NCBI GenBank assembly: GCA_001793945.1
Contig: MGIW01000006.1
Span: 202,239 to 266,238, forward strand
Direction of reading: 5' to 3'
DNA length: 64,000 nt
From: Candidatus Wolfebacteria bacterium RIFOXYD12_FULL_48_21
GTDB lineage: Bacteria > Patescibacteriota > Minisyncoccia > UBA6257 > UBA9933
Part shown: piece after piece, positions 55,654-60,742 of the stretch
Layout of the letters: the number at the start of each line of letters is the position of its first letter
Position numbering within the stretch: the stretch's first letter is position 1
The notes under the pieces: model-generated
Seen by the model: only the letters and a program-made list of their open reading frames with translations
What the model was told of the DNA's origin: nothing
Database searches by the model: none
Position numbers and translations under genes: made by a program

Positions 55654-57501
55654 ATGGGCATTTTTAATCTCACATCCGAATACGGGCCGTCGGGCGACCA
55701 GCCGGAGGCGATCGAGCAACTGAAGGCAGGGCTTGATCGGGGCGAGCAATATCAGACCTTGCTTGGCATTACCGGGTCAGGAAAAACTTTTACGGTCGCC
55801 AATGTAATCCGGCATTTTAATAAGCCGGTTCTTGTGATTGCGCCAAACAAGGCGCTTGCCGCTCAGTTGTATCGGGAATATAAGAATTATTTTCCCGAGC
55901 ATTCGGTGAATTATTTTGTTTCCTATTACGACTATTATCAGCCTGAGGCGTATATGCCGGGGACCGATACCTATATTGAAAAGGAGGCTATGATCAACCA
56001 AGAGATCGATCGGTTGCGCCATCAGGCTACATCCGCATTGTTGACCCGCAAGGATGTGATCGTGGTCGCGTCGGTTTCGTGCATCTATGGTCTTGGCGTG
56101 CCGATGAATTATTTTGCATCCGCAATCCACTTGGCGGTCGGGCAACAGATCACCCGCGGCGACCTCATCAGCCAATTGATCAAGATCCAATTTACCCGTA
56201 CGGCAGGTGTGTTGAAGCGCGGCGAGTTTCGCGTGCGCGGGGATGTATTTGAAATCATGCCCGCATCCGAGACCATGAGCTATGCGATTGAGCTCGGACC
56301 TGATCAGACCGTTACGGACATCGCGATCATCGATCCGGTGACGCGGACCATGATCGATCACCCGCAGGATGTCGCCCTGTTCCCGCCGAAGCATTTTATT
56401 TCAAGCGCGCCCGAGATTGCGCGTGCGGTAAAGGATATCAAGACCGAGCTGGACGACCGACTTGCGTATTTTAACGAACACAAGCTGTATCTTGAGGCTC
56501 AGCGTTTGGAGCGACGCGTGCGCTATGACATGGAGATGCTGAAGAGCCTCGGTTTTTGTCATGGCGTGGAAAACTATTCGCGCCATTTGAGTGGCAAGCT
56601 TGTCGGCGAAGCACCCGATACATTGCTGGATTATTTTCCGCGCGACAAACAGGGCAAGCCCGACTTTTTGTTGGTCATGGACGAATCTCACATTGGCGTA
56701 CCGCAGGTGCGTGGCATGTACGCGGGCGATCGAAGCCGCAAGGATACTTTGGTGAAATATGGCTGGCGTTTGCCGTCGGCAATGGATAACCGGCCGCTTA
56801 TGTTCAAAGAATTCGAACAGCGCATCGGGCAGACGATCTTTGTGTCGGCAACGCCGGGCGATTGGGAACTGGAACATTCGAAGACCGTCGTAGAGCAGGT
56901 CATTCGGCCGACCGGGTTGATCGATCCGCCTATTACAGTGCGTCCGGTATTTGATAAAGACAAGAACCGCAGTCAGATCATCGATGTCATGGAGGAATTG
57001 CATGGCGTGGTCAAAAAAGGGGAGCGCGCATTGGTCATCACGCTTACGAAAAAGCAGGCCGAGGATCTGAACGATCATTTGACGAACGAAGGATTCAAAT
57101 CGCGCTACATCCATTCTGAAGTAAAGACCTTCGAGCGCACGGAGATATTGATGGATTTTCGCAGGGGAATATTCGATGTGCTGATCGGCGTGAACCTTTT
57201 GCGTGAAGGGCTCGACCTGCCGGAGGTAACCTTGGTCGCCATTTTGGATGCGGACCGGGAAGGGTTTTTGCGCAGTGAAACATCGTTGATACAGACCATG
57301 GGACGCGCGGCTCGGAATGTGAGCGGAACGGTTATTCTGTATGCAGATAAGGTAACGGGTTCCATGCAACGCGCCATGGATATTGTCGACAAGCGAAGAA
57401 AATTGCAAATGGCGTACAATAAAAAGCACGGCATTACGCCGAAGACCATTCATAAGGCCATCGAATACATGCTTGATTTTAGCGGGTCCGCGGGCGAATG
57501 A
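55654..57501 (+). CDS. uvrB: excinuclease ABC subunit B (compact form)
   Basis: PSGDQPEAIEQL, LLGITGSGKTF Walker A, helicase motifs, VLIGVNLLREGLDLPEV. Confidence 0.9.
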   Translation: MGIFNLTSEYGPSGDQPEAIEQLKAGLDRGEQYQTLLGITGSGKTFTVANVIRHFNKPVLVIAPNKALAAQLYREYKNYFPEHSVNYFVSYYDYYQPEAYMPGTDTYIEKEAMINQEIDRLRHQATSALLTRKDVIVVASVSCIYGLGVPMNYFASAIHLAVGQQITRGDLISQLIKIQFTRTAGVLKRGEFRVRGDVFEIMPASETMSYAIELGPDQTVTDIAIIDPVTRTMIDHPQDVALFPPKHFISSAPEIARAVKDIKTELDDRLAYFNEHKLYLEAQRLERRVRYDMEMLKSLGFCHGVENYSRHLSGKLVGEAPDTLLDYFPRDKQGKPDFLLVMDESHIGVPQVRGMYAGDRSRKDTLVKYGWRLPSAMDNRPLMFKEFEQRIGQTIFVSATPGDWELEHSKTVVEQVIRPTGLIDPPITVRPVFDKDKNRSQIIDVMEELHGVVKKGERALVITLTKKQAEDLNDHLTNEGFKSRYIHSEVKTFERTEILMDFRRGIFDVLIGVNLLREGLDLPEVTLVAILDADREGFLRSETSLIQTMGRAARNVSGTVILYADKVTGSMQRAMDIVDKRRKLQMAYNKKHGITPKTIHKAIEYMLDFSGSAGE

Positions 57502-57800
57502 TTTTGTGTTGCAGTTATTATTCCCGTCTGCCAGCTGGCGGAGGAGTCCGCTTCTATTTTAAAATAAATGTTTTTCCACTTTTTTTATAAAAAGTGGAGT
57601 AAAAAATCACGAACCGGGAATAGTTCGGGGTCGCCTCCAAAAAGGCTGAAACTCCGAACTCGCGCGCTTTGCATAAGCGCACTCAAACAACGGAGTTTCT
57701 TCCGTTCTTTTTTCGGCTCCCTTTATCCGAACTATTCTCCATGTTCGTAAAAAGTATTTGACCTTCCATTCTCACAGGCTTGCATGACCCTTAACCCAAT

Positions 57801-58153
57801 AAAAAAGCCGGGATAAATCCCGGCGTTGGTAAAACATTCGCTCGCCCCGAGCCCTTTTGGTAATCCCGGTGCCTGACGCGCGATATCCGCGTTTTCTTCC
57901 GGTTTTTCTCCCAGGTAGGAGAGGTATCTCACTGGCGGCTCCATCCCAACCGGAGTCGGAACTTCATAGCCTCCCTCCTATACTGCGCACTACCTTCGCC
58001 TTGGGGCGAAACAGGGCGGATTCGAACCACCAGCAAATAAGGGATGCGTGCCTCCTATGCGTTTCGTTGGTCAGTGCCAAGCGAAACAGGATCATCTCAT
58101 ATCTGCCAAGCCAACTTCAGCTTCAGGGCGAGCGAAATCCGTATCAATGTAAC
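57801..58153 (-). ncRNA. putative ~350-nt non-coding (or dual-function) RNA with its own promoter and terminator
   Basis: Minus strand: -35 TTGACT (58190-58185), 18-nt spacer, -10 TATGAT (58166-58161); intrinsic terminator CGCCGGGATTTATCCCGGCTTTTTT at 57825-57801; contains T-arm-like GGTGGTTCGAATCCGCC and a 12-codon ORF with SD AGGAGGGAGG (57967-57929). Confidence 0.45.
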
Positions 58154-58184
58154 TGCGTGTATCATATACTAATAGGGATAAACA

Positions 58185-58199
58185 AGTCAATCGGTTGAC
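58185..58199. promoter_or_regulatory. palindromic shared -35 region of divergent promoters (AGTCAATCGGTTGACA)
   Basis: TTGACT on minus strand and TTGACA on plus strand are arranged back-to-back upstream of uvrA. Confidence 0.4.
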
Positions 58200-58237
58200 A
58201 AACCTTTTCTACGGTGTCATAAGTAAGTACTAACGAC

Positions 58238-60742
58238 ATGGAAGACAAAATAAGCATCAAGGGCGCGCGCGTCCATAATTTAAAGAATATCAACCTCGAG
58301 ATACCAAAAAACAAGTTGGTGGTATTTACGGGTGTTTCGGGTAGCGGCAAATCGTCGCTTGCGTTTGATACCATTTTTGCCGAAGGACAACGCCGGTATA
58401 TCGAATCATTGTCGCCGTACGCCCGACAGTTTTTGGGCCAAATGGAACGCGCCGATGTGGATGAGATTGTCGGCCTGTCGCCGGCCATCGCCATCGACCA
58501 ACGGGCGCTTTCGCACAACCCGCGTTCGACCGTGGGAACGCTGACGGAGATCTATGATTATTTGCGCATTTTGTTCGCGCGCTTGGGTGATGTACATTGT
58601 CCAAATGACGGCACGAAAATAGAAAAATTGTCCGTCGATGAAATGATCGACATCGTAATCGCGCGCGCAAAAAAAGCGAAGCAGAGTATGGTCACCGTGC
58701 TTTCGCCAGTGGTGCGCGGACGCAAGGGGGAGTACTATCAACAGTTGTACGATTATCTTGGACTCGGATTTTCACAGGTGCGCATTGATGGCGTCATGCA
58801 TTCGTTGCACGAAAAGATCGAGTTGTCGCGCTACAAGGAGCATTCGATCGATCTGGTCATCGACAAGGTTCTTTTGACGGATGTCGCGCGCTTGCACGAG
58901 GCCGTTGAAAGCGCACTTGATCAAAGCAAAGGGCTGGCCACCATTTTAATGGGCGAGCAGACGGAAGCTCCGGAGGAGTTCATGCTTTCTTCGAAGTGGA
59001 CCTGTCCGGTGGATAATTTTGTGTTTCCCGATATCGAGCCGCGGCTGTTTTCTTTCAATAGTCCGCATGGCGCATGCGAGACCTGTTCCGGACTTGGCAA
59101 GACCGACCTGTTCTTAAAGACCATCTGCCCCGATTGTAAGGGGAAGCGATTGCGCCCCGAAGCATTGTCCATTCGCATCGACGGGAAAAATATTTATGAA
59201 GTGGCTTCCATGACCAACGCCGATTCGCATGCATTTTTTACGGCGTATGAAAAAAAGATGACCGAGCGTGAAAAAACCATCGCCGCGACCGTAGTAAAGG
59301 AGATCACGGATCGGCTGCACTTTTTACTTGAAGTGGGGCTTGATTATTTGACCATGACGCGCGAAGCGGAAACATTGTCGGGTGGTGAAGCACAGCGCAT
59401 CCGGCTTTCTTCGCAAATAGGCTCCCAGCTTTCCAATACGCTCTATGTGCTTGATGAGCCGACAATTGGTCTGCACGAACGCGATACCGACCGGCTGGTG
59501 GGAATATTAAAGAAACTTAAGGCGCAGAACAACACCGTGATCATTGTCGAGCACGACGAACTGACCATCCTTGAATCTGACCACTTGGTCGACTTCGGGC
59601 CGTTTGCCGGCAAACATGGCGGCGAGGTCGTCGCACATGGCGATACGGCAAAACTGTTGAAGAATCCGGGCGAAATGAACTCCATGACCGTGCAATATTT
59701 GCGTGAAGAACGGAAGATCGCGGTGCCTGAGCGGCGGAGTAAGATAGCCGAAAAGTTGTCGATCGTCGGCGCGACCGCGCATAATTTGAAAAATGTGAAT
59801 GTGGATATTCCGTTGCGCAAGCTGGTGTGTGTTACAGGTGTCTCGGGTAGTGGTAAATCGACTTTGATACAGGATGCGCTGTATGAAAATTTGAATTCGT
59901 TGAAGTCGCGCATGAACGAACCGCTTACGGGCGTCGCGAACATTACCGGTTCCGAATATATCGACCGGGTCATTGCGGTCGACCAGGCGCCGATCGGGCG
60001 CACTCCGCGTTCCAATCCTGCCACTTACACGGGTATCCTTACGCCGGTCCGTGAGTTCTATGCGCAATTGCCCGAAGCGCGCGAACGGGCCTATACCGCG
60101 TCGCGGTTTTCATTCAATGTGGCGGGTGGCCGATGCGAGTCGTGCCAAGGGGCGGGACATAACTTGATCGAGATGCACTTTTTGCCGCCGGTATTGGTGG
60201 AGTGTGAAGTGTGTCACGGCAAGCGATACAACCGCGAAACATTACAGGTAAAGCACAACAAGAAAAGCATCAGCGATGTGCTCGCCATGACCATCGATGA
60301 AGCGGCGGAATTTTTTGACGGCATATGGCAGATTACCGACAAACTGAAGGTACTGCAATCCGTGGGATTGGGTTATCTGCAGTTGGGTCAAAGTGCCACC
60401 ACGCTTTCGGGCGGGGAAGCGCAGCGCATCAAGTTGGCGCGCGAATTGACGCACCCGCTGGGCAAGCGTGTGTTGTATTTGCTCGACGAACCTACCGTTG
60501 GGTTGCATTACTATGATGTCGAACTGCTGTTGACCGTACTGAACAAGCTGGTAGACAAAGGACACTCCGTTGTGGTGATCGAGCATAATATGCACCTCAT
60601 CAAATCGGCCGACTATGTCATCGACCTCGGGCCGGAAGGAGGCGAGCGGGGAGGTTCCATCGTTGCCAAGGGCACGCCCGAAGAGGTCGCCGCAAACAAA
60701 CACAGTATTACCGGCAGTTACCTGAAGCATTTTCTGAAATAA
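58238..60742 (+). CDS. uvrA: excinuclease ABC subunit A (compact form)
   Basis: Two ABC modules ([15 protein letters not shown] and [15 protein letters not shown] Walker A; LSGGEAQRI signature twice), zinc-finger Cys clusters. Confidence 0.95.

What the first reader, a model, noticed from the sequence alone, without database searches (positions are those of the whole stretch)
57790..58200. Orphan transcription unit divergent from uvrA: putative ~350-nt ncRNA with a tRNA-like T-arm and a 12-codon ORF
A 700-bp gap between uvrB and uvrA has no plausible protein gene. The minus strand carries a good promoter (TTGACT-18-TATGAT) whose -35 box forms a palindrome with the uvrA -35 (AGTCAATCGGTTGACA). 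About 350 nt downstream is an intrinsic terminator (CGCCGGGATTTATCCCGGC followed by a run of six T). The transcript contains GGTGGTTCGAATCCGCC (a tRNA T-arm consensus), a CGAAACG...TGTTTCG pairing that could close an acceptor-like stem without an anticodon arm, and a strongly SD-preceded 12-codon ORF (MKFRLRLGWSRQ). It might be a divergent tmRNA-like or tRNA-like regulatory RNA, a small protein gene, or a leader.
Basis: seen in the sequence. Interest (0 to 1): 0.6.

Follow-up and report, generated by a model that had tools for sequence, protein, structure and literature searches.

The report
Small RNA copying ribosome's L1 stalk
Between the DNA-repair genes uvrB and uvrA of a Candidatus Wolfebacteria genome lies a real, separately transcribed, about 350-base structured RNA gene of no described family; it is neither a tmRNA nor a peptide gene, and one arm is a near-copy of the ribosome's L1 stalk, so it probably acts as a decoy for whatever binds that stalk.

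Summary

**Interpretation: partly right.**
- It is a genuine non-coding RNA gene, window about 58154 to 57801, minus strand.
- Three diverged Wolfebacteria lineages carry it at this locus. Its core is 64-88% identical, while fourfold-degenerate sites of uvrA are only 34-50% identical.
- Nine base pairs keep pairing after both sides changed.
- ARAGORN and Rfam find no tmRNA, tRNA, RNase P, 6S or SRP RNA.
- The proposed acceptor pairing and the ORF are not conserved.

**New result.** Positions 57919-57988 (minus strand) match the 23S rRNA L1 stalk (helices 76-78): 43 bits, E about 4e-12. The homologous place in a relative scores 44 bits. The supposed Shine-Dalgarno sequence and ATG are simply the rRNA motif GGGAGGCU(A/U)UGAAG.

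**Architecture.** Five arms closed by an invariant 14-bp helix.

**Best guess (confidence about 0.4).** An L1-stalk mimic that binds ribosomal protein uL1, or else the tRNA elbow.

**Main caveat.** I could not establish whether this lineage encodes uL1.

The family looks rare and dispensable: at least 10 other sampled relatives have lost it.

The parts
58161..58190 (-). Sigma-70-type promoter of the RNA: -35 TTGACT (58190-58185), 18-nt spacer, -10 TATGAT (58166-58161). It lies back to back with the uvrA -35 box TTGACA (58195-58200, plus strand).
   Evidence: 10 of 12 consensus positions. TTGACT with a TACGAT -10 box is kept in L002 and L037.
57801..58154 (-). Predicted primary transcript, about 354 nt, running from about 7 nt after the -10 box to the end of the U run. 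Both ends are inferred, not measured.
   Evidence: Homologues are L002:3561-3924(-) and L037:2076-2471(-).
58142..58154 (-). Conserved, apparently unpaired 5' end AGUUACAUUGAUA.
   Evidence: 12 of 13 positions are identical in all three lineages.
58123..58136 (-). 5' strand of the closing helix P1, UUCGCUCGCCCUGA.
   Evidence: I3. 13 of 14 pairs are invariant in three lineages.
57837..57850 (-). 3' strand of the closing helix P1, UCGGGGCGAGCGAA.
   Evidence: I3.
58033..58106 (-). Long irregular hairpin arm, variable in sequence.
   Evidence: Identity to the relatives is only 31-35%, close to neutral, yet a nested hairpin forms in all three minimum-energy folds.
58015..58031 (-). T-arm-like hairpin GGUGG-UUCGAAU-CCGCC: a 5-bp stem with a 7-nt T-loop.
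   Evidence: The third pair is U-G, U-A and C-G in the three lineages. Only a 17-nt match to a tmRNA model T-arm.
57994..58011 (-). Small hairpin UUUCGCC-CCAA-GGCGAAG.
   Evidence: One pair changes C-G to U-A in L002.
57919..57988 (-). Look-alike of the 23S rRNA L1 stalk (top of helix 76, helices 77 and 78). It includes both T-loop bulges, GGCUAUGAAG and UGAGAUACC.
   Evidence: cmscan against LSU_rRNA_bacteria, model positions 2136-2205: 43 bits, E 3.7e-12 to 7.1e-12. L002 scores 44.2 bits. Helices 76 and 78 covary.
57929..57967 (-). The 12-codon ORF MKFRLRLGWSRQ. It lies wholly inside the L1-like arm, and I do not consider it a gene.
   Evidence: Not conserved. SD-like motifs are rare in this genome.
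57866..57902 (-). 3' arm: CCGG / 7x7 internal loop / CGCG hairpin / CCGG. It is preceded by the A-rich junction GGGAGAAAAA.
   Evidence: The 3' third of the RNA is 79-88% identical between lineages.
57825..57836 (-). Conserved single-stranded 3' tail UGUUUUACCAAC.
   Evidence: GUUUUACC is invariant.
57801..57824 (-). Intrinsic terminator: 7-bp G+C-rich hairpin (57824-57807) and U6 run (57806-57801).
   Evidence: An equivalent hairpin plus U run is present in L002 and L037.

Best explanation
This is a stand-alone gene for a highly structured non-coding RNA of about 350 nt, found in a subgroup of Candidatus Wolfebacteria (CPR/Patescibacteria).

**Expression (inferred).** It is transcribed from its own sigma-70-type promoter, divergently from uvrA, and ended by an intrinsic terminator.

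**Fold (shown by comparison).** An invariant 14-bp helix formed by the two ends closes a junction with five arms:
1. a long arm of variable sequence;
2. a T-loop hairpin;
3. a small hairpin;
4. an arm that is a near-copy of the 23S rRNA L1 stalk;
5. a hairpin with a 7x7 internal loop.

**Mechanism (inferred, not shown).** The RNA works by molecular mimicry. It presents a free copy of the L1-stalk core to whatever normally binds that stalk.
- **First candidate: ribosomal protein uL1.** The nucleotides kept in all three variants are a 5-bp helix, GA, GGC...GCC and UGAGAYACC. From my own knowledge these are what 23S rRNA shares with the minimal uL1 operators on mRNA. Helix 78 and the first T-loop are replaced in one lineage, and those parts are not needed for uL1 binding. 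The RNA would then titrate or store free uL1 in trans.
- **Second candidate, if the lineage lacks uL1: the elbow of deacylated tRNA.**
For: **It is a gene for a structured RNA**
- The promoter and terminator are present and kept in homologues.
- Three lineages carry it at the same locus and in the same orientation.
- uvrA fourfold-degenerate sites are 34-50% identical between these lineages. The RNA's 3' third is 79-88% identical and its T-hairpin/L1 region 64-75%.
- Of 50 modelled pairs, 94.7% of cells are paired. Nine pairs changed on both sides, against 4.6 +/- 1.5 in shuffles (2 of 500 shuffles reach 9). Controls with the 3' partners slid by 1-3 columns give only 38-51% paired.
- Folding z-scores are -3.3, -3.0 and -3.0.

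**The strand is the minus strand**
- G-U pairs in P1 and in the T stem would be mismatches on the other strand.
- The rRNA match is on the minus strand.

**Mimicry**
- The LSU rRNA model matches positions 2136-2205 at 43 bits, E about 4e-12. The homologous place in L002 scores 44.2 bits.
- The match extends to unpaired nucleotides: GGGAGGCUAUGAAG against GGGAGgCuuuGAAg, and UGAGAUACC against UGAaAUACC.
- L037 keeps GGGAGGC...GCC..UGAGACACC but not helix 78 or T-loop 1.

**Precedent**
- uL1 binds the same structural motif in 23S rRNA and in its autoregulatory mRNA. A 55-nt rRNA fragment or a 36-nt mRNA fragment is enough for binding (PMC2175363).
Against: - **No binding or expression data exist.**
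- **The lineage may lack uL1.** A large Parcubacteria subgroup lacks it (PMC5220378, PMC9297842). That subgroup largely coincides with lineages lacking the anti-SD motif (PMC9297842). This window is SD-poor, with 5 of 51 ORFs showing an SD-like tetramer. I found no rplA or rplK in the DNA I held, which is uninformative.
- **Most of the RNA is unexplained.** The T hairpin, the invariant P1, the conserved tails and the 3' arm are not needed for uL1 binding.
- **The mimic has partly decayed in L037.** The rRNA model no longer detects it there.
- **The tRNA-elbow version is weakened.** L037 has lost T-loop 1.
- **The RNA is dispensable.** It is missing from at least 10 other sampled relatives.
- **Only three full sequences are available.**
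Confidence: 0.4

Rival explanations
1. **Structural module only.** An rDNA fragment was captured and reused as a self-folding three-way junction inside a larger structured RNA. The real job of that RNA, as a ribozyme, an RNP scaffold or something else unknown, has nothing to do with L1-stalk ligands.
For: - Most conserved sequence lies outside the L1-like arm: the invariant P1, the 5' and 3' tails, the T hairpin and the 3' arm.
- L037 has remodelled the arm, with a longer helix 78 and an extra hairpin, while keeping everything else.
- From my own knowledge, T-loops are general tertiary-contact modules.
Against: - The unpaired rRNA nucleotides of the arm are kept, not just its helices.
- GGGAGGC and UGAGAYACC are invariant in all three lineages while the neighbouring helices covary.
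Confidence: 0.3
2. **tRNA-elbow binder.** The two interdigitated T-loops of the L1-like arm stack on the elbow of tRNA, as the ribosomal L1 stalk, T-box Stem I and RNase P do. The RNA would then sense or sequester deacylated tRNA. This is a sub-case of the mimicry explanation with a different ligand.
For: - Both T-loop bulges are kept in the window and in L002.
- The motif and its role in docking tRNA are described in PMC3664808.
- It would still work in a lineage without uL1.
Against: - In L037 the first T-loop (UAUGAAG) is replaced by CAGCG and helix 78 is remodelled.
- The rRNA model gives no match there.
Confidence: 0.15
3. **tmRNA-like or tRNA-like RNA** (standard or circularly permuted tmRNA, or a Y-RNA-like tRNA mimic).
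For: - A canonical T-arm sequence is present.
- It is followed by 7 nt and then GCC in all three lineages, which resembles a tRNA 3' end.
- In the window, CCA sits in the next hairpin loop.
Against: - ARAGORN, which also looks for permuted tmRNA, finds nothing.
- No tRNA, tmRNA or Y-RNA-like family appears even at E up to 10, apart from a 17-nt T-loop match.
- No conserved acceptor partner and no G3-U70 pair. The CCA is absent in L002 and L037.
- No conserved tag frame.
- No Ro-family (rsr) gene nearby.
Confidence: 0.03
4. **Small-protein gene** (MKFRLRLGWSRQ), or a non-functional decaying rRNA fragment.
For: - The ORF is preceded by a GGAGG-like motif in the window.
- Part of the region is rRNA-like.
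Against: - The ORF is broken in L002 (VNP-stop) and absent in L037.
- The genome hardly uses SD motifs.
- A pseudogene would not keep 79-88% identity where neutral sites are saturated.
- A pseudogene would not show compensatory changes or keep its promoter and terminator.
Confidence: 0.04

Closest known systems
L1 stalk of bacterial 23S rRNA (helices 76-78)
   Same: 70-84 nt align to the stalk in both sequence and structure. The match covers the GGGAGGC junction, the 3-bp helix, the 8-bp hairpin with a tetraloop and both T-loop bulges.
   Different: - It is not part of an rRNA gene. Nothing else in the RNA matches rRNA.
- It is embedded in a 350-nt RNA with its own promoter and terminator.
- In L037 the arm is remodelled.
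uL1 autoregulatory operator on mRNA (L11/L1 operon leader in bacteria; L1 mRNA in Methanococcus)
   Same: It is an rRNA look-alike carrying the motif that uL1 recognises on both rRNA and mRNA (PMC2175363). The L037 version is reduced to roughly that minimal core.
   Different: - Known operators are short and act in cis, just upstream of or within ribosomal-protein mRNAs.
- This one is a trans-encoded RNA ending in a terminator, between uvrB and uvrA, with no ribosomal-protein gene nearby.
- It carries the full stalk and four further arms.
Double T-loop modules that dock the tRNA elbow (T-box Stem I apex, RNase P J11/12-J12/13)
   Same: It has the same pair of T-loop bulges as the L1 stalk, the structure to which those modules are compared (PMC3664808).
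   Different: - No T-box or RNase P features, and no Rfam match.
- No downstream gene to regulate.
- The T-loop pair is not kept in L037.
Bacterial Y RNA / YrlA tRNA mimics, and tmRNA
   Same: - A T-arm with canonical T-loop sequence.
- A long stem formed by the 5' and 3' ends.
- A modular build.
   Different: - No D-arm or acceptor equivalent.
- No Ro-family (rsr) neighbour.
- No tag frame.
- No match to the models.
Large structured bacterial ncRNAs of unknown function (OLE, GOLLD, ROOL, raiA class)
   Same: - Several hundred nucleotides long.
- A multi-arm fold supported by covariation.
- Narrow phylogenetic range.
- No known function.
   Different: - No sequence or structure match to any of them.
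- It contains an arm that is recognisably derived from rRNA.

Membership tests
tmRNA (standard or two-piece/permuted) | A tRNA-like domain with a 7-bp acceptor stem carrying G3-U70 and a 3' (N)CCA next to the T-arm. | tested here: not met
   - No conserved partner for the strand after the T-arm.
- The local hairpin that does form starts with C in L002 and L037.
- The CCA is present only in the window.
tmRNA (standard or two-piece/permuted) | A conserved tag-peptide reading frame. | tested here: not met
   The only ORF, MKFRLRLGWSRQ, is not conserved: VNP-stop in L002 and replaced in L037.
tmRNA (standard or two-piece/permuted) | Detected by ARAGORN or by the Rfam tmRNA models. | tested here: not met
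   ARAGORN finds none. Only a 17-nt T-loop match to beta_tmRNA, 8-10.6 bits against a gathering score of 84.
Y RNA-like tRNA mimic (YrlA) | Encoded next to a Ro-family (rsr) gene, with T-arm, D-arm and acceptor mimic. | tested here: not met
   The neighbours are rsmE, uvrB, uvrA, an MFS transporter and uvrC. Only a T-arm is present, and there is no Rfam match.
RNase P RNA / 6S RNA / SRP RNA | A match to the family covariance model, meaning the conserved core (P4 for RNase P, the central bubble for 6S, domain IV for SRP). | tested here: not met
   - No match from any RNase P or SRP family at E up to 10 on the RNA itself, in the window or in L002, or at E up to 1 in L037.
- The one 6S-type match on the wider region is a chance-level hit to Bacteroidales-1 (16.7 bits against a gathering score of 60, E 2.6). 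It lies at 57612-57724 on the plus strand, outside the RNA.
23S rRNA gene or gene fragment | Contiguous similarity to 23S beyond one sub-domain. | tested here: not met
   Only model positions 2136-2205 match (2129-2212 in L002). The score is below the family's gathering score of 50, and the flanks are unrelated.
uL1 autoregulatory rRNA mimic | Carries the uL1-binding motif shared by 23S rRNA and the mRNA operator. | tested here: met
   - Tested at sequence and secondary-structure level only.
- GGGAGGC...GCC...UGAGAYACC with the flanking 5-bp helix is present in all three lineages.
- That these are the binding determinants rests on PMC2175363 and on my own knowledge.
uL1 autoregulatory rRNA mimic | Located in or just upstream of a ribosomal-protein mRNA whose translation it controls. 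| tested here: not met
   A terminator follows, there is no downstream gene on that strand, and no rplK or rplA is found in the window or loci.
uL1 autoregulatory rRNA mimic | The organism encodes uL1, and the protein binds the RNA. | not testable with these tools
   - Only 64 kb of the genome is available.
- The literature says a Parcubacteria subgroup lacks uL1 but, in the texts I could read, does not say whether Wolfebacteria belong to it.
- Low SD usage hints that they may.
Double T-loop tRNA-elbow docking module | Two interdigitated T-loop bulges on a helix 76/77-type scaffold. | tested here: inconclusive
   Met at sequence level in the window and L002. Not met in L037. The three-dimensional fold and tRNA binding cannot be tested here.

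The most novel reading that the evidence does not exclude
In a bacterial lineage that has lost ribosomal protein uL1, a free-standing rRNA-derived RNA carries a spare L1 stalk together with a T-arm and acts in trans on translation. It might capture deacylated tRNA by the elbow, or dock at the ribosomal E site. That would make it a new class of rRNA-derived riboregulator.
Probability: 0.12. Interest if true: 0.85.

Novelty: new variant of a known kind. Interest (0 to 1): 0.55.

Why it matters
**What is already known.** Mimicry of rRNA by RNA is the classic way ribosomal proteins regulate their own synthesis. To my knowledge it has been described only for short cis-acting sites on ribosomal-protein mRNAs.

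**What would be new.** A separately transcribed 350-nt RNA that carries an almost complete L1 stalk would extend that principle to a trans-acting decoy.

**Why this organism.** It sits in the Candidate Phyla Radiation, where the L1 stalk itself is unusual: some lineages lack uL1 and some lack helix 78 (PMC9297842).

**A testable link.** That paper leaves open how such ribosomes cope without the missing parts. This RNA offers a concrete handle on the question. Do the genomes that carry it encode uL1, and does it bind uL1 or tRNA?

**Side benefits.**
- It adds a well-defined, covariation-supported family to the small set of large structured bacterial RNAs of unknown function.
- It shows that a local rRNA match can be missed by a whole-window Rfam scan at gathering thresholds.

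Tried and rejected
**Rejected identities**
- **tmRNA, permuted tmRNA, tRNA-like:** rejected.
- **RNase P, 6S, SRP, riboswitches:** no Rfam match on the RNA. Chance-level hits only: c-di-GMP-II (17 bits), drum (14.6 bits) and, outside the RNA on the plus strand, the 6S-type Bacteroidales-1 (16.7 bits).
- **Small protein:** rejected.
- **Leader or cis-regulator of uvrA:** in L037 another ORF lies between the RNA gene and uvrA. No gene lies downstream on the RNA strand.
- **Mobile-element or att-site remnant:** no flanking direct repeats and no integrase.
- **Phage or plasmid origin:** no phage match. The single plasmid match is a 68-nt, 80%-identical stretch in a Scytonema record with no annotated feature under it. 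Three viral-contig pattern scans gave nothing real.

**Searches for more family members**
- The genome-collection scan with UvrA gave 22 loci. Only L002 has the RNA.
- The metagenome pattern scan gave only a duplicate of L002 and two chance hits in G+C-rich coding DNA.
- Eleven further contig look-ups through UvrA relatives added L037.
- Searching the protein database with the spurious ORFs that gene callers place on the RNA found only the three known types and one partial fourth, P0124.

**Other dead ends**
- **Base-pairing targets for the conserved tails:** nothing above chance in the window.
- **Folding z-score to choose the strand:** uninformative, since the plus strand scores -4.2.
- **Does Wolfebacteria encode uL1?** Four of my eight literature searches were aimed at this. 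Text look-ups in four papers, two empty supplement look-ups and one failed fetch (Brown et al. 2015 is not held) did not settle it. tblastn with E. coli L1 and L11 found nothing in the DNA held.
Full report
**1. Where the window comes from, and the locus**

UvrA of the window (58238-60742, plus strand) is up to 99% identical in its best aligned segment to UvrA of Candidatus Wolfebacteria genomes (CPR/Patescibacteria). uvrB (55654-57501) and uvrA are separated by 736 bp. The wider neighbourhood is rsmE, uvrB, the gap, uvrA and an MFS transporter. In related contigs uvrC follows. Nothing in the gap matches Pfam.

**2.

| Feature | Coordinates (minus strand) |
|---|---|
| Promoter TTGACT-18-TATGAT | 58190-58161 |
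| Terminator hairpin plus U6 | 57824-57801 |
| GGTGGTTCGAATCCGCC | 58031-58015 |
| ORF MKFRLRLGWSRQ | 57967-57929 |

- The two -35 boxes lie back to back in AGTCAATCGGTTGACA (58185-58200).
- Nineteen contigs from ENA, JGI and NCBI carry the identical UvrA. All seven loci read from them hold the RNA with identical model scores.

**3. It is a conserved, structured RNA gene**

*Homologues.* They sit between uvrB and uvrA, in the same orientation:
- L002 (GW2011_GWE2_44_13; UvrA 93% identical).
- L037 (ENA ERZ27237587; UvrA about 88% identical).

*Selection.* These lineages are old relative to neutral change.

| Region compared | Identity between lineages |
|---|---|
| uvrA fourfold-degenerate sites | 34-50% |
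| RNA, 3' third | 79-88% |
| RNA, T hairpin to L1 region | 64-75% |
| RNA, long 5' arm (window against either relative) | 31-35% |

The long 5' arm still folds as a nested hairpin in all three.

*Base pairing.*
- Of 50 modelled pairs, 94.7% of cells are standard pairs. Controls with the 3' partners slid by 1-3 columns give 38-51%.
- Nine pairs changed on both sides, against 4.6 +/- 1.5 in shuffles. Only 2 of 500 shuffles reach nine.
- The covarying helices are the T stem (U-G, U-A, C-G), the small hairpin, the helix-76-like stem and the helix-78-like stem.

*Folding energy.* z-scores are about -3 in each lineage. The opposite strand also scores well, so energy does not choose the strand.

*Strand.* It follows from three things:
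- the promoter and terminator;
- G-U pairs in P1 and the T stem;
- the orientation of the rRNA match.

*Limits.* Three sequences are few, and the closing helix is invariant. An invariant helix gives no evidence for or against pairing.

**4. What it is not**

- **No known RNA family.** ARAGORN finds five tRNAs elsewhere in the window and nothing here. Rfam at gathering thresholds finds only those tRNAs. At E up to 10, the only tRNA-related match on the RNA is a 17-nt T-loop fragment.
- **No acceptor stem.** CGAAACG is unique to the window. In all three lineages the strand after the T-arm forms a local hairpin that covaries.
- **No permuted tmRNA.** In L002 and L037 that hairpin begins with C, has no G3-U70 pair and has no CCA in its loop.
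- **No peptide gene.** The ORF is not conserved. SD-like tetramers precede only 5 of 51 ORFs in this window, so an SD-like string is not evidence of translation here.

**5. What the tools added**

- Scanned alone, the RNA shows a significant local match to bacterial 23S rRNA. Window 57919-57988 (minus strand) aligns to model positions 2136-2205 at 43 bits, E 3.7e-12 to 7.1e-12.
- The homologous part of L002 aligns to positions 2129-2212 at 44.2 bits.
- These positions are the L1 stalk: the top of helix 76 plus helices 77 and 78.
- Agreement extends to unpaired nucleotides: GGGAGGCUAUGAAG against GGGAGgCuuuGAAg, GGAGCC, and UGAGAUACC against UGAaAUACC.
- The two bulges are the interdigitated T-loops that dock the tRNA elbow in the ribosome (PMC3664808).
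- The whole-window scan missed the match because the fragment scores below the family's gathering score of 50, and that scan also runs with Rfam's own fast filters.

**6. Architecture**

- **Closing helix P1:** 58136-58123 pairs with 57850-57837. Thirteen of 14 pairs are invariant.
- **Arms, in order:**
  1. a variable arm (58106-58033);
  2. the T hairpin (58031-58015);
  3. a small hairpin (58011-57994);
  4. the L1-like arm (57988-57919);
  5. an A-rich junction, then a hairpin with a 7x7 internal loop (57902-57866).
- **Conserved unpaired ends:** AGUUACAUUGAUA at the 5' end and GUUUUACC before the terminator.
- **L037 variant:** helix 78 is longer, an extra hairpin is inserted and the first T-loop is replaced. 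The rRNA model no longer detects the arm. The 5-bp helix, GA, GGC...GCC and UGAGACACC remain.

**7. Distribution**

- The RNA is absent from this locus in at least 10 other sampled Wolfebacteria: L004, L033, L034, L001, L035, L036 and L038-L041.
- In those relatives the gap ranges from 37 to 221 bp.
- L037 serves as an outgroup and carries the RNA at the same locus. The RNA's divergence tracks host divergence. Ancestral presence with repeated loss is therefore the simplest history.
- The RNA is therefore dispensable.
- No further members turned up in the metagenome or viral scans, or in a search of 5.8 billion predicted proteins with the spurious ORFs called on the RNA. The exception is one partial fourth variant, P0124.

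**8. Mechanism**

*Shown:*
- a selected, structured, separately bounded RNA;
- an arm that looks like the L1 stalk.

*Inferred:* the RNA acts by mimicking the stalk.

*For uL1 as the ligand:*
- uL1 recognises the same motif in 23S rRNA and in its mRNA operator, and small fragments are enough for binding (PMC2175363).
- The nucleotides kept in all three lineages correspond, from my own knowledge of those operators, to that minimal motif.
- The parts lost in L037 are the ones needed for tRNA docking, not for uL1 binding.

*The main obstacle:*
- A large Parcubacteria subgroup lacks uL1 (PMC5220378, PMC9297842).
- That subgroup overlaps most lineages that lack the anti-SD motif (PMC9297842), and this window is SD-poor.
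- I could not establish whether Wolfebacteria belong to that subgroup.

*Probabilities I assign:*

| Reading | Probability |
|---|---|
| Mimicry in total | about 0.4 |
| of which uL1 as ligand | about 0.2-0.25 |
| of which tRNA or another stalk ligand | about 0.15-0.2 |
| rRNA-derived structural module with an unrelated function | about 0.3 |
| Everything else | the remainder |

**9. Comparison and novelty**

- It works like an rRNA mimic.
- It is not a member of the known uL1 operators, because it is trans-encoded, ends in a terminator, is far larger and has no ribosomal-protein gene nearby.
- It is not a member of any Rfam family.
- I class it as a new variant of a known kind.
- Interest is moderate to high for RNA and CPR-ribosome specialists. 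It is tempered by the narrow distribution, by having only three sequences and by the absence of any functional data.

Noticed in passing
window 57502-58237; L004:3780-4000, L034:2799-3000, L037:1937-3000, L001:3951-4000: The uvrB-uvrA spacer is hypervariable among Wolfebacteria, from 37 bp to about 1065 bp, and is built from interchangeable modules. A long inverted-repeat element is shared by L004, L034 and L037. A different element is shared by the window and L002. The RNA gene is present or absent independently of both. In L001 the uvrB stop codon lies inside the uvrA -35 box.
   Followed up: partly
window 57560-57790 (core hairpin 57575-57598): A second conserved non-coding stretch lies between uvrB and the RNA terminator. 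About 45 nt, including the A+T-rich hairpin CCACTTTTTTTATAAAAAGTGG, are nearly identical in L002. Further on, 11-nt arms at 57618-57628 and 57727-57737 are complementary, and terminator-like hairpins occur on both strands. It has no Rfam match and is absent from L037. It may be another small RNA or a bidirectional terminator.
   Followed up: partly
window 57567-57578 and 57827-57838: A 12-nt inverted repeat (11 of 12 complementary) links the RNA's conserved 3' tail to the start of the neighbouring conserved element. It is weaker in L002, and its meaning is unknown.
   Followed up: no
whole window (51 ORF starts): Only 5 of 51 predicted gene starts have a GGAG, GAGG or AGGA tetramer upstream. 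This fits the Parcubacteria lineages reported to lack the anti-SD motif.
   Followed up: partly
L045:350-870 (ENA ERZ909579, 986-bp contig): A copy of the RNA that matches the window's except for one uncompensated C-to-G change in the 3' strand of the otherwise invariant closing helix. It could be a sequencing error or a rare variant.
   Followed up: yes
protein P0124 (66 aa; 3478-bp contig, JGI/ENA; DNA not fetched): A spurious ORF whose translation spans the RNA's 3' end (KGSGRANVLPTPGFIPAFL) and then sequence resembling the uvrB-proximal element of L037. This suggests a fourth, partly different variant of the locus.
   Followed up: no
L037:2578-2982 (+): In L037 a 134-aa hydrophobic ORF with no Pfam match lies between the RNA promoter and uvrA. 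The back-to-back arrangement of two -35 boxes is kept there, but with this ORF rather than uvrA.
   Followed up: partly
L035:6892-7575, L039:6429-7115, L041:6429-7115: Some relatives carry an IS200/IS605-type Y1 transposase gene (PF01797) between the MFS transporter gene and uvrC. The window has no such gene there.
   Followed up: no
window 58006-58015 and 58081-58090: GCGAAACAGG (CCUGUUUCGC on the RNA strand) occurs twice within the RNA, in the window only. This is why alternative pairings with CGAAACG looked attractive in the single sequence.
   Followed up: yes
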